From Phototrophicaceae bacterium (lineage in GTDB: Bacteria > Chloroflexota > Anaerolineae > Aggregatilineales > Phototrophicaceae): a stretch of 64,000 bases of DNA. The stretch is taken from NCBI GenBank assembly GCA_049680565.1, contig JBAUIA010000411.1:2928-66927 (forward strand), in the 5' to 3' direction. Of this stretch, positions 9,683 to 9,922 are shown piece by piece (position 1 is the stretch's first letter; each line of letters starts with the position of its first letter). The translations under genes and the position numbers were made by a program. The notes under the pieces were generated by a model. The model ran no database searches, had not been told where the DNA came from, and saw only the letters and a list, made by a program, of their open reading frames with translations.

Positions 9683-9711
9683 TTGACGAAGCTCACACTC
9701 TATTTTAGACT
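9683..9711 (+). promoter_or_regulatory. Candidate sigma-70-type promoter of the arg leader transcript
   Basis: TTGACG (9683-9688), a 17-nt spacer, then TAGACT (9706-9711). It lies about 25 nt upstream of the leader ORF. Confidence 0.45.
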
Positions 9712-9733
9712 ACGCCATATTATTGATTACTGG

Positions 9734-9829
9734 ATGACATCATCTATGACTGTAATTGTTAGTTTTGCAAAAAGAATCCGTCGCCGCCCTACGACAATCA
9801 AGGTCGTGCTGGGTGTGTTGTGTTTCTAA
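9734..9829 (+). CDS. Candidate arginine-codon leader peptide (31 aa: MTSSMTVIVSFAKRIRRRPTTIKVVLGVLCF)
   Basis: Manual translation. There are four Arg codons within five positions (AGA ATC CGT CGC CGC, 9773-9787). The ORF stops 38 nt before the terminator hairpin that precedes argC. No strong SD is present. Confidence 0.45.
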   Translation: MTSSMTVIVSFAKRIRRRPTTIKVVLGVLCF

Positions 9830-9866
9830 ACTGACAAAGTATCACAACTACAAAACCGAACATCAG

Positions 9867-9902
9867 CCCTGACCTCTGAACTATTTGAGGTTGGGGTTTT
9901 TT
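9867..9902 (+). terminator. Intrinsic terminator (candidate attenuator) immediately upstream of the argC RBS
   Basis: CCCTGACCTC-tgaactattt-GAGGTTGGGG forms a 10-bp stem with two G-U pairs, followed by TTTTTT. The hairpin ends 5 nt before the AAGGAGA RBS of argC. No plus-strand gene lies upstream for it to terminate. Confidence 0.8.
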
Positions 9903-9922
9903 AGTTTAAGGAGAAAGATACA

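What the first reader, a model, noticed from the sequence alone, without database searches (positions are those of the whole stretch)
9683..9922. Candidate arginine leader-peptide transcription attenuator in front of argCBDJ
What the sequence shows:
- A plausible promoter: TTGACG, 17 nt, TAGACT.
- A 31-codon ORF (9734-9829) encoding MTSSMTVIVSFAKRIRRRPTTIKVVLGVLCF. Four Arg codons fall within five positions (AGA ATC CGT CGC CGC).
- A strong intrinsic terminator at 9867-9902 (10-bp stem plus T6). It ends 5 nt before the argC RBS.
- No upstream plus-strand gene needs a terminator here, because rpoD is divergent.

Short alternative pairings exist:
- Region 1, CCCtACGAC (9787-9795), lies directly after the Arg codons and can pair with region 2, GTCGTgctGGG (9803-9813).
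- Region 2, as GGTC...GGG (9802-9813), can instead pair with the 5' arm of the terminator, CCCtGACC (9867-9874).

This is the classical 1:2 / 2:3 / 3:4 logic of his/trp/leu attenuators. A ribosome stalled on the Arg run would mask region 1 and favour antitermination. Bacterial arg operons are classically described as ArgR/AhrC-controlled. To my knowledge, leader-peptide attenuation keyed to Arg codons is not a standard described mechanism. The alternative helices are short, so the model is an inference.
Basis: partly seen in the sequence, partly recalled or inferred. Interest (0 to 1): 0.75.

Follow-up and report, generated by a model that had tools for sequence, protein, structure and literature searches.

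The report
Arginine-codon leader attenuator before argC
A tiny upstream reading frame packed with arginine codons, followed by a switchable transcription stop signal, precedes the arginine-synthesis operon in this Chloroflexota bacterium and in 34 relatives, which suggests they gauge arginine supply by ribosome speed; I found no earlier report of this classic mechanism for arginine synthesis.

Summary

The window comes from a Phototrophicaceae MAG (Anaerolineae, Chloroflexota). The module was found upstream of argC in 24 other Anaerolineae genomes, 8 metagenome contigs and 3 further close-relative loci. ArgC identity falls to 54% and GC ranges from 41 to 64%. Each measure below was taken on whichever of these loci it could be applied to. 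The module has these parts:
- a promoter, TTGAC[GA]-17-TAnAnT;
- a short ORF of about 17-38 codons with 3-6 clustered Arg codons, almost all CGU/CGC;
- region 1, directly 3' of the Arg run;
- region 2, (G/A)AGGUC..GGG;
- an intrinsic terminator whose 5' arm, CCCUGACCUC, is complementary to region 2.

All three helices (1:2, 2:3, 3:4) are maintained: 87-95% of cells pair, against at most 59% when the register is slid. Helices 1:2 and 3:4 show compensatory changes.

The terminator ends 21 nt before the argC start codon, so argCBDJ-carAB must be transcribed through it.

Rfam 15 has no match, and literature searches found no Arg-keyed leader-peptide attenuator for arginine biosynthesis.

Verdict: a ribosome-mediated attenuator with a new amino-acid specificity, supported only in silico. 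Confidence is about 0.85.

The parts
9631..9674 (+). Conserved upstream element: imperfect palindrome TATGCA-N4-TGCACA (9631-9645, perfect as TGTGCA-N4-TGCACA in L003), then AAAAAGTGCCTAAAAATTTT (9655-9674). Possible transcription-factor operator. Its link to the attenuator is uncertain.
   Evidence: It is conserved at the same place before the -35 box in the low-GC clade (window, L001-L004, L051, L151, L153) and not in high-GC relatives. It matches the ARG-box consensus only loosely; that comparison is my own, made from memory of the consensus.
9683..9711 (+). Sigma-70-type promoter TTGACG-17-TAGACT. The start of transcription is predicted near 9718.
   Evidence: Found by the scan. TTGAC[GA]-16/18-TAnAnT lies 75-113 nt upstream of region 2 in 30 of the 31 loci that have enough upstream sequence.
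9734..9829 (+). Leader-peptide ORF: 31 codons from ATG 9734, or more probably 27 codons from the in-frame ATG 9746, with stop TAA at 9827-9829.
   Evidence: The Arg-rich frame is open with a start codon in 30/30 loci. Shine-Dalgarno pairing is weak to moderate, TGGA in the window. The peptide is absent from a collection of 15 billion proteins, so it has never been called as a gene.
9773..9787 (+). Control codons AGA-AUC-CGU-CGC-CGC: four Arg codons in five positions.
   Evidence: All 33 loci measured have 3-6 clustered Arg codons. Of 152 codons counted, 140 are CGT or CGC. CGT and CGC are the common Arg codons of this genome (47% and 29%), whereas AGA is rare (2%).
9786..9795 (+). Region 1 (GCCCUACGAC), the 5' strand of the 1:2 hairpin. 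It begins inside the last Arg codon.
   Evidence: Folding. The last Arg codon of the run lies 15 or 18 nt before region 2 in 27/33 loci, which places region 1 inside the footprint of a ribosome stalled there. Covariation is shown.
9801..9814 (+). Region 2 (AGGUCGUGCUGGGU). It pairs either with region 1 or with region 3, in which case it acts as the antiterminator.
   Evidence: (G/A)AGGUC..GGG is nearly invariant in all 33 loci. The 2:3 helix has 95% of cells paired, against at most 59% when slid. RNAalifold predicts 2:3 unaided.
9815..9826 (+). U-rich tract directly after the 1:2 hairpin (GUGUUGUGUUUC). Inferred to be a hairpin-dependent pause site for RNA polymerase.
   Evidence: At least 4 U in the 7 nt after the hairpin in 22/33 loci, with consensus GGGAUUUUUGCGUU, even in genomes with 60% GC. 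The function is an inference.
9867..9902 (+). Intrinsic terminator (attenuator): region 3 CCCUGACCUC (9867-9876), a 10-nt loop, region 4 GAGGUUGGGG (9887-9896) and U6 (9897-9902).
   Evidence: -15.9 kcal/mol in the window and -19.2 on average over 25 loci. It is present in all 33 loci, with compensatory changes in the stem. It is the only 5'-leader terminator in the window.
9764..9904 (+). Extent of the covariance-model match (Arg run through the terminator).
   Evidence: Model R1 scores 84.7 bits, E = 4e-20. It is the only plus-strand hit in the 64-kb window.
9908..18825 (+). Regulated operon: RBS AAGGAG (9908-9913), argC 9923-10927, argB 10924-11670, argD 11696-12892, argJ 12885-14111, carA (ORF 14374-15549, probable ATG 14432) and carB 15577-18825.
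   Evidence: NCBIfam equivalog hits above the curated cut-offs. In close relatives L151 and L153 the same genes are packed tightly, with an argJ-carA gap of 35 or 10 nt, which indicates one operon. Only 20 nt separate the terminator from argC, and no promoter-like site lies there.

Best explanation
This is a ribosome-mediated (leader-peptide) transcription attenuator that sets expression of the argCBDJ-carAB operon according to the supply of charged tRNA-Arg.

Transcription starts about 7 nt after the -10 box. A leader ORF of 27-31 codons is translated while RNA polymerase transcribes the leader. The 1:2 hairpin and its U-rich tail probably pause the polymerase until a ribosome arrives.

When Arg-tRNA(Arg) is scarce:
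- the ribosome stalls on the CGU-CGC-CGC run;
- its footprint covers region 1, which begins inside the last Arg codon;
- region 2 (AGGUC..GGG) is left free to pair with region 3 (CCCUGACCU) as soon as region 3 emerges;
- the terminator hairpin cannot form, and the polymerase reads into argC.

When arginine is plentiful:
- the ribosome moves on over region 2 to the stop codon, or 1:2 re-forms after the ribosome is released;
- region 3 pairs with region 4, and transcription ends at the U6 tract (9897-9902), 21 nt before the argC start codon.

Shown here: the sequence elements, their class-wide conservation, their geometry, and the maintenance of the three helices. Inferred: pausing, the stalling signal, and the direction of the response.
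For: 1. All the elements are present in the window.

2. The same module lies upstream of argC in 24/24 Anaerolineae genomes and in 8 metagenome contigs, and is visible in 3 further close-relative loci.
- ArgC identity ranges from 54 to 80% and GC from 41 to 64%.
- The covariance model scores 46-116 bits, once per locus in 33 loci.
- It scores nothing in six non-Chloroflexota argC loci and nothing elsewhere in the window.

3. There is a coding signature.
- The Arg-rich frame is open with a start codon after the -10 box in 30/30 loci, with ATG in 29. The other two frames have an ATG-started open frame in only 3-4/30.
- Each locus has 3-6 Arg codons, and 140 of the 152 counted are CGY with the third position varying.
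- The N-terminal peptide sequence and length are not conserved.

4. The geometry is constant. The last Arg codon of the run lies 15 or 18 nt before region 2 in 27/33 loci.

5. The constraint on region 2 is at the RNA level. It stays conserved in five loci where the stop codon precedes it and the frame relative to it shifts.

6. The helices are maintained.
- For 1:2 plus 3:4, 86.9% of cells pair, 7 pairs show changes on both sides, no shuffle out of 500 reaches the observed percentage paired or covariation score, and slid registers reach at most 54%.
- For 2:3, 95% of cells pair, against at most 59% when slid, and there is a compensatory A-U in L011.
- RNAalifold picked 2:3 unaided.

7. Mean energies are -12.1 (1:2), -13.7 (2:3) and -19.2 (3:4) kcal/mol. 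Region 2 ranks in about the top 1% of random 15-mers from the same locus as a partner for region 3.

8. With a ribosome placed on codon 9785, the nascent RNA up to 9884 folds into 2:3.

9. Only 20 nt separate the terminator from argC, with no promoter-like site, so the operon must be read through the terminator.

10. The control codons are the genome's common Arg codons, as in classical attenuators.
Against: - There is no experimental evidence of any kind: no transcript ends and no response to arginine.
- In the window the 2:3 helix is weaker than in most relatives. It opens with an A.C mismatch and has -10.6 kcal/mol against -15.9 for the terminator. The full-length minimum-free-energy fold always contains the terminator, so antitermination would have to be kinetic.
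- Support for 2:3 is mostly invariance. Only 2 pairs show changes on both sides. The sequences are related, so the shuffle controls overstate significance.
- In most loci the stop codon lies 24-30 nt after the start of region 2. A ribosome waiting at the stop would cover only the 3' part of region 2.
- The Shine-Dalgarno signal of the leader ORF is weak in the window and in several relatives.
- No second copy was found in front of any other arg gene.
Confidence: 0.85

Rival explanations
1. The conserved block is recognised by a trans-acting factor: an RNA-binding protein of the PyrR or TRAP type, or a small ligand as in a riboswitch. That factor would choose between antiterminator and terminator, and the Arg codons would be incidental to a CG-rich binding site.
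For: Regions 1-3 are unusually invariant at the nucleotide level across a whole class. The CGUCGUCGC repeat could in principle be a protein-binding repeat. Part of the conservation of 2:3 cannot be told apart from a sequence-specific site.
Against: - The Arg frame is open, has a start codon in 30/30 loci, and varies at third codon positions (CGT/CGC/CGA/AGR), which indicates a coding constraint.
- There is no structure beyond three simple alternative hairpins, and Rfam gives no match even at E <= 10.
- The spacing between the Arg run and region 1 is fixed at about one ribosome footprint.
Confidence: 0.05
2. The promoter, short ORF and terminator form an independent small RNA or small-protein gene. 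Alternatively, the terminator is a constitutive partial terminator that merely sets a fixed low level of arg transcription, and arginine control comes from a DNA-binding repressor at the upstream palindrome.
For: A conserved palindrome lies upstream of the -35 box in the low-GC clade. Terminated attenuator RNAs can act in trans in other bacteria, for example rnTrpL (PMC6614838, listed). The full-length fold always favours the terminator.
Against: - argC starts 21-91 nt after the terminator, with no promoter-like site in the window, so the two cannot be independent transcription units.
- A fixed terminator explains neither the conserved Arg run nor the conserved region 2 complementary to the terminator's 5' arm.
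- The palindrome is missing in the high-GC relatives that keep the full attenuator.
Confidence: 0.05
3. The nascent leader peptide itself senses free arginine and arrests the ribosome, as the fungal arginine attenuator peptide or bacterial TnaC do. On this view tRNA charging at the Arg codons is not the signal.
For: Most leaders share the motif RRR(S)RRP-x-T-x-EV-x-x-G-x-L.
Against: - In five loci the ORF stops right after the Arg run (for example RRRRHT*, RRRRKHAN*), so the tail is not translated, yet its DNA stays conserved.
- GAGGTC shows almost no synonymous variation, as expected for an RNA constraint.
- Arrest caused by abundant arginine at that position would free region 2 and increase arg expression when arginine is plentiful, which is the wrong regulatory sign.
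Confidence: 0.03
4. [quoted passage not shown]
For: Leader ORFs have been proposed to raise downstream translation through re-initiation (PMC4833913).
Against: - The leader stop codon is about 94 nt from the argC start, with a strong terminator in between.
- The Arg run is conserved in all 33 loci, while the rest of the peptide is not.
Confidence: 0.02

Closest known systems
Classical leader-peptide attenuators of Proteobacteria (trpL, hisL, leuL, thrL, pheL, ilv leaders; Rfam His, Leu, Thr and Trp leader families)
   Same: - A promoter-proximal short ORF with clustered codons for the amino acid made by the operon.
- The 1:2, 2:3 and 3:4 alternative hairpins.
- An intrinsic terminator just before the first structural gene.
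- Control codons that are common codons.
- Helix energies of similar size to those I recall for trp.
   Different: - The sensed amino acid is arginine. The amino-acid attenuator specificities listed in PMC3766115 are His, Leu, Thr and Trp, plus Ile/Val and Phe.
- The host is Chloroflexota (Anaerolineae).
- There is no sequence or model similarity to any Rfam family.
- The stop codon usually lies further beyond region 2 than in trpL.
- A conserved U-tract follows the 1:2 hairpin.
Salmonella speF leader orf34 (PMC6386406)
   Same: A translated upstream ORF in which ribosome pausing at consecutive Arg codons under low arginine selects between alternative mRNA structures (abstract read).
   Different: - orf34 has two Arg codons and controls ornithine decarboxylase, a polyamine-synthesis enzyme.
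- It acts through Rho-dependent termination, RBS sequestration and sensitivity to RNase G, not through an intrinsic terminator.
- It does not control arginine biosynthesis.
Arg-specific T-box leaders of Firmicutes
   Same: RNA-level control of arginine-related genes that responds to tRNA-Arg charging through a choice between terminator and antiterminator. PMC1262725 notes that arginine genes are regulated by T-boxes.
   Different: A T-box binds uncharged tRNA directly through a large conserved structure and has no translated ORF. There is no T-box match here, even at E <= 10.
ArgR/AhrC repression at ARG boxes
   Same: It has the same regulatory target (arg biosynthetic operons) and the same sign of response, repression by arginine.
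   Different: It is a DNA-binding protein that acts at transcription initiation. Here the only candidate operator is an upstream palindrome restricted to the low-GC clade, which resembles the ARG-box consensus only loosely (the consensus is from memory). No ArgR family was among the Pfam/NCBIfam matches of the 19 window ORFs I scanned. The rest of the genome is unavailable.
Fungal arginine attenuator peptide (uORF of arg-2/CPA1)
   Same: An upstream ORF that makes expression of carbamoyl-phosphate synthetase and arginine-pathway genes respond to arginine through the ribosome.
   Different: The AAP senses free arginine through its conserved peptide sequence and blocks scanning. It is eukaryotic, acts on translation, and does not depend on Arg codons (from my own knowledge). 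Here the peptide tail is dispensable and the read-out is transcription termination.

Membership tests
Ribosome-mediated (leader-peptide) transcription attenuator | A short translatable ORF in the 5' leader, downstream of the promoter | tested here: met
   The window ORF runs 9734/9746-9829. The Arg frame is open with a start codon after the -10 box in 30/30 loci, with ATG in 29. Shine-Dalgarno pairing is only weak to moderate.
Ribosome-mediated (leader-peptide) transcription attenuator | Clustered codons for the amino acid produced by the downstream operon | tested here: met
   There are 3-6 Arg codons in a tight cluster in 33/33 loci measured, and the downstream genes are argC-argB-argD-argJ-carA-carB.
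Ribosome-mediated (leader-peptide) transcription attenuator | An intrinsic terminator between the leader ORF and the first structural gene, with no intervening promoter | tested here: met
   The terminator spans 9867-9902, a 10-bp stem plus U6, and ends 20 nt before argC. It is present in all 33 loci, 21-91 nt before argC in the 25 loci measured.
Ribosome-mediated (leader-peptide) transcription attenuator | An antiterminator (2:3) that is mutually exclusive with the terminator | tested here: met
   (G/A)AGGUC..GGG pairs with CCCUGACCUC. 95% of cells pair, against at most 59% when slid. RNAalifold predicts it unaided. Covariation is limited.
Ribosome-mediated (leader-peptide) transcription attenuator | An anti-antiterminator (1:2) whose 5' strand lies within the footprint of a ribosome stalled at the control codons | tested here: met
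   Region 1 starts inside the last Arg codon. The spacing from the last Arg codon to region 2 is 15 or 18 nt in 27/33 loci. The 1:2 helix has 83-86% of cells paired and 4 pairs with changes on both sides.
Ribosome-mediated (leader-peptide) transcription attenuator | A stop codon placed so that an unstalled ribosome prevents 2:3 | tested here: inconclusive
   The stop lies 24-30 nt after the start of region 2 in most loci, so a ribosome there covers only the 3' part of region 2. In five loci it lies immediately before region 2, so the footprint covers it. Both placements are compatible with the model, but the first is less tight than in trpL.
Ribosome-mediated (leader-peptide) transcription attenuator | Read-through that rises on starvation for the cognate amino acid and depends on the control codons | not testable with these tools
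   This needs Term-seq, reporter or in vitro coupled assays. The organism is known only as a MAG.
Rfam leader families (His_leader, Trp_leader, Leu_leader, Thr_leader and others) | A score at or above the family's gathering threshold | tested here: not met
   No Rfam 15 family matches 9200-10000 even at E <= 10, apart from a spurious intron hit at E = 7 elsewhere in the stretch. The only gathering-level hit in the window is a tRNA.
T-box riboswitch | A conserved T-box structure with specifier loop and T-box sequence | tested here: not met
   No T-box match in Rfam at E <= 10.
Nascent-peptide arrest sensors (AAP/TnaC type) | A conserved, translated peptide sequence that is required for sensing | tested here: not met
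   The N-terminal part is not conserved. The C-terminal motif is untranslated in five loci while its DNA stays conserved.
ArgR/AhrC operator control | Tandem ARG boxes overlapping the promoter, and an argR gene | tested here: inconclusive
   A palindrome and an A/T-rich box lie upstream of the -35 box in the low-GC clade only, with a loose resemblance to the ARG-box consensus. No ArgR family was among the matches of the 19 window ORFs I scanned. The rest of the genome is not available.

The most novel reading that the evidence does not exclude
This is a previously uncatalogued cis-regulatory RNA family. It would be the first leader-peptide transcription attenuator keyed to arginine codons that controls an arginine and carbamoyl-phosphate biosynthesis operon. 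It is conserved across the class Anaerolineae, where it supplements or replaces the ArgR paradigm. It carries an extra conserved hairpin-plus-U-tract element inside the leader ORF that may act as a programmed pause or a first termination site.
Probability: 0.6. Interest if true: 0.65.

Novelty: new variant of a known kind. Interest (0 to 1): 0.6.

Why it matters
Arginine biosynthesis is the textbook case of repressor control by ArgR/AhrC. The amino-acid attenuator specificities listed in the comparative survey I read (PMC3766115) are His, Leu, Thr, Trp, Ile/Val and Phe, and I know of a few others.

An Arg-keyed attenuator conserved across a whole class of Chloroflexota would matter for four reasons.
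- It adds a new amino-acid specificity to a classic mechanism.
- It shows that ribosome-mediated attenuation operates in a deep, poorly studied phylum. This also implies transcription-translation coupling and functional intrinsic terminators there.
- It provides a ready covariance model for annotating these abundant wastewater, sediment and marine bacteria.
- It offers a compact arginine-responsive genetic part.

It also couples carAB, and therefore pyrimidine precursor supply, to tRNA-Arg charging in these organisms.

Tried and rejected
- **Rfam.** I searched the leader at E <= 10 and the whole window at gathering thresholds. Nothing relevant matched.
- **Metagenome pattern scan** (CGTCGYCG..GAGGTC..CCCTGACCTC). 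The covariance model accepted only 8 of them. The other 112 were chance matches in GC-rich DNA, because I underestimated the background. The scan therefore cannot show whether other genes carry the element.
- **A second copy in the window.** I looked in particular before carA. There is none. The long argJ-carA spacer is a window-specific insertion instead.
- **The limit of the taxonomic range.** The ArgC homologue search listed only proteins with at least 59% identity, so more distant Chloroflexota could not be sampled.
- **Literature.** Eight full-text searches for an arginine leader peptide or attenuator found no prior description. One of them (argL / arg leader) was swamped by unrelated ARGLU1 papers.
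- **Peptide-level conservation as the cause of the motif.** Rejected because of the five short-ORF loci.
- **An independent sRNA gene.** Rejected because there is no room for an argC promoter.
- **ArgR.** No ArgR family was among the matches of the 19 window ORFs I scanned.
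Full report
**The observation**

- a promoter, TTGACG (9683-9688), a 17-nt spacer and TAGACT (9706-9711), also found by the consensus scan;
- an ORF from ATG 9734 to TAA 9827-9829, containing AGA-ATC-CGT-CGC-CGC at 9773-9787;
- a terminator, CCCTGACCTC (9867-9876), a 10-nt loop, GAGGTTGGGG (9887-9896) and T6 (9897-9902);
- the argC RBS at 9908-9913 and the argC start at 9923.

NCBIfam confirms rpoD on the minus strand (7908-9203). It also confirms argC, argB, argD, argJ, carA and carB on the plus strand. RNAfold reproduces both the terminator and the 1:2 hairpin. The leader folds better than shuffled versions, z = -2.0.

Within the 64-kb window only 21 places in six frames have at least 4 Arg codons in 5 consecutive codons. 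My terminator scan returned 13 candidates. By position and shape I judge about four of them canonical intrinsic terminators. Three of those sit at gene 3' ends, and this one is the only one in a 5' leader.

**Source organism**

The window's ArgC is identical to NCBI MGB7341701.1, from a Phototrophicaceae MAG in the class Anaerolineae, phylum Chloroflexota. The leader peptide is absent from a collection of 15 billion proteins, so it has never been annotated. The window's GC content is 42.6%.

**Comparative test**

A scan of one genome per species with ArgC returned 30 loci. Twenty-four are Anaerolineae, with ArgC identity of 54-80% and GC of 41-62%. Six are Verrucomicrobiota or Cyanobacteria at 38-40% identity.

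All 24 Anaerolineae loci carry the same three-part block upstream of argC:
- a run of CGY codons;
- CCCGCAGACC-nnn-GAGGTC-nnGCnGGG;
- 45-80 nt further on, CCCCTGACCTC-loop-GAGGCAGGGG-T(4-6).

The spacer between regions 2 and 3, the N-terminal codons and the flanks are not conserved. The block is therefore under selection and is not simply a product of recent ancestry.

I built a covariance model from the 25 sequences. It scores 63-111 bits once per Anaerolineae locus, and 84.7 bits at window 9764-9904. It finds nothing in the six outgroup loci and nothing else in the window. The only other hits are weak minus-strand echoes of the terminator.

The model accepted only 8 of them, at 46-116 bits. 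All 8 lie directly upstream of argC. The other 112 are chance matches in GC-rich DNA. Three more close-relative loci from two relatives (L151 and L152, the same sequence from two sources, and L153) show the same leader and the same synteny, rpoD <> argCBDJ-carAB.

**Is the ORF real?**

- In 30 of 30 loci with enough upstream sequence, the Arg-rich frame is open from a start codon located after the -10 box. The start is ATG in 29 of them.
- The other two frames are open with any start codon in 9 and 14 of 30, and with ATG in only 3-4 of 30.
- Each leader has 3-6 clustered Arg codons. Of the 152 counted, 140 are CGT or CGC, with the third position varying.
- CGT and CGC are the common Arg codons of this genome, at 47% and 29%.
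- Peptide length (17-38 residues) and the N-terminal sequence vary freely.
- Shine-Dalgarno pairing is clear in about a third of loci (AAGGTG, AGGAG) and weak in the window (TGGA).
- Alignment with L001, L002 and L153 suggests that the window's start is the in-frame ATG at 9746, giving 27 codons.

**RNA constraint or peptide constraint?**

Most leaders share ...RRR(S)RRP-x-T-x-EV-x-x-G-x-L. In five loci (L008, L013, L019, L020, L022) the stop codon lies directly after the Arg run and before region 2. In three of these (L008, L013, L022) the frame relative to region 2 also shifts. Even so, (G/A)AGGUC..GG remains conserved in all five. The conservation of region 2 is therefore at the RNA level.

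**The three helices**

| Helix | Cells paired | Slid register | Pairs with changes on both sides |
|---|---|---|---|
| 1:2, MAFFT alignment of 25 sequences | 83% | at most 50% | 4 |
| 1:2 plus 3:4, model-based alignment of 33 sequences | 86.9% | at most 54% | 7 (33 cells) |
| 2:3, 33 sequences | 95% | at most 59% | 2 |

- For 1:2 plus 3:4, none of 500 shuffles reached the observed percentage paired or covariation score.
- Support for 2:3 rests mainly on invariance, plus G-U changes and two compensated pairs. One of these is AAGGUC/GACCUU in L011.
- RNAalifold, run on the plain MAFFT alignment with no guidance, returned the 2:3 helix as the consensus structure.

Mean energies over 25 loci are -12.1 kcal/mol for 1:2, -13.7 for the 2:3 duplex and -19.2 for 3:4. 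As a partner for region 3, region 2 ranks in about the top 1% of random 15-mers from the same locus.

For the window, I placed a ribosome on CGC 9785 and considered RNA only up to 9884, before region 4 emerges. The minimum-energy fold then contains 2:3. The full-length fold always contains the terminator, so the switch would have to be kinetic, as in the trp attenuator.

**Geometry**

- The last Arg codon of the run lies 15 or 18 nt upstream of region 2 in 27 of 33 loci. Region 1 starts inside or right after that codon, within a stalled ribosome's footprint.
- The stop codon is 24-30 nt beyond the start of region 2 in most loci, or immediately before region 2 in the five short forms.
- A U-rich tract follows the 1:2 hairpin in 22 of 33 loci, with consensus GGGAUUUUUGCGUU, even at 60% GC. 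I read this as a hairpin-dependent pause that synchronises ribosome and polymerase. That reading is an inference.
- The promoter TTGAC[GA]-17-TAnAnT is conserved 75-113 nt upstream of region 2.
- The terminator ends 21-91 nt before argC. In the window the gap is 20 nt with no promoter-like site, so the operon has to be transcribed through the terminator.
- In L151 and L153 argJ and carA are 35 and 10 nt apart, so carAB belongs to the same operon.

**Mechanism**

The best-supported reading is classical ribosome-mediated attenuation keyed to Arg-tRNA(Arg), probably the isoacceptor that reads CGY.
- On starvation the ribosome stalls on the Arg run and masks region 1. Region 2 pairs with region 3, and the polymerase reads through into argCBDJ-carAB.
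- With plentiful arginine the ribosome passes over region 2, or 1:2 re-forms. Region 3 pairs with region 4, and transcription ends at 9897-9902.

Shown: the elements, their conservation, their geometry and the helix maintenance. Inferred: the stalling signal, the pause and the direction of the response.

**Rivals**

- A protein- or ligand-controlled switch is disfavoured by the coding signature and by the absence of any larger structure or Rfam match.
- An independent sRNA or a fixed terminator fails because argC has no promoter of its own. It also leaves the Arg run and region 2 unexplained.
- An AAP/TnaC-like nascent-peptide sensor fails on the five short-ORF loci and on the regulatory sign.
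- A pure translational-enhancer role does not explain the Arg run.

**Comparison with what is known**

It works like the trp, his, leu, thr, phe and ilv leader attenuators, but it matches no Rfam family. A comparative survey lists amino-acid attenuator specificities as His, Leu, Thr and Trp, plus Ile/Val and Phe (PMC3766115). Another states that arginine genes are known to be RNA-regulated through T-boxes (PMC1262725).

The closest Arg-codon precedent I found is Salmonella speF orf34. There, two Arg codons modulate mRNA structure and RNase G sensitivity for ornithine decarboxylase, not an intrinsic terminator of an arg operon (PMC6386406). Eight full-text searches found no Arg leader-peptide attenuator for arginine biosynthesis and none in Chloroflexota. 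The library lacks most subscription-journal papers, so a prior description cannot be excluded.

**Verdict**

I classify the element as a new variant of a known kind: a new amino-acid specificity, a new phylum and a new sequence family. Confidence in the mechanism is about 0.85. Interest is about 0.6, because the case is convincing and useful for annotation but mechanistically orthodox and untested experimentally.

Noticed in passing
window 9631-9674: An imperfect palindrome TATGCA-N4-TGCACA, followed by AAAAAGTGCCTAAAAATTTT, lies just upstream of the arg promoter's -35 box. It is conserved in the low-GC clade (L001-L004, L051, L151, L153) and absent in high-GC relatives that keep the attenuator. 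It may be a transcription-factor operator. It resembles an ARG box only loosely.
   Followed up: partly
window 14112-14431: The argJ-carA spacer is about 320 nt long and strongly structured (-85.6 kcal/mol, z = -3.8, 0 of 100 shuffles as stable), with CT-rich and AG-rich inverted repeats. In close relatives L151 and L153 the same junction is only 35 and 10 nt, so this is an insertion specific to this genome. It has no other copy in the window or in the fetched loci.
   Followed up: partly
window 9815-9826; the same position in 22 of 33 related loci: A U-rich tract (consensus GGGAUUUUUGCGUU) follows the 1:2 hairpin inside the leader ORF, even in genomes with about 60% GC. Together with the hairpin it looks like a pause site or a weak first terminator.
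   Followed up: partly
window 9773-9775; L001, L003, L004, L005, L051, L151, L153: In the low-GC clade a rare AGA or AGG Arg codon (AGA is 2% of Arg codons in the window's genes) sits two codons upstream of the CGY triplet, giving R-x-R-R-R. High-GC relatives instead have RRRSRR or RRRRR, made of CGY codons only.
   Followed up: no
L008, L013, L019, L020, L022 (leader regions): In this short-ORF variant of the leader the stop codon comes right after the Arg run, before region 2, and in three of the five (L008, L013, L022) the frame relative to region 2 is shifted. A ribosome at the stop codon would cover region 2 directly, as in trpL.
   Followed up: yes
L151 15362-15883: A Uma2-family (PF05685) gene is inserted between carA and carB in one close relative. 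It is absent from the window and from L153.
   Followed up: no
window 41445-41480: A perfect palindromic hairpin with T-runs on both strands lies between the convergent genes 39444-41093 (+) and 41495-46237 (-). It looks like a bidirectional intrinsic terminator.
   Followed up: no
L018 (CAZTLS010000021.1): This contig is labelled 'uncultured Pleurocapsa sp.' (Cyanobacteria), yet it carries an Anaerolineae-type ArgC (58% identity) and the full attenuator (77.9 bits). The bin is probably mislabelled or contaminated.
   Followed up: no
window 63048-63121: The only tRNA gene in the window is tRNA-Thr (CGU). It is unrelated to the finding.
   Followed up: yes
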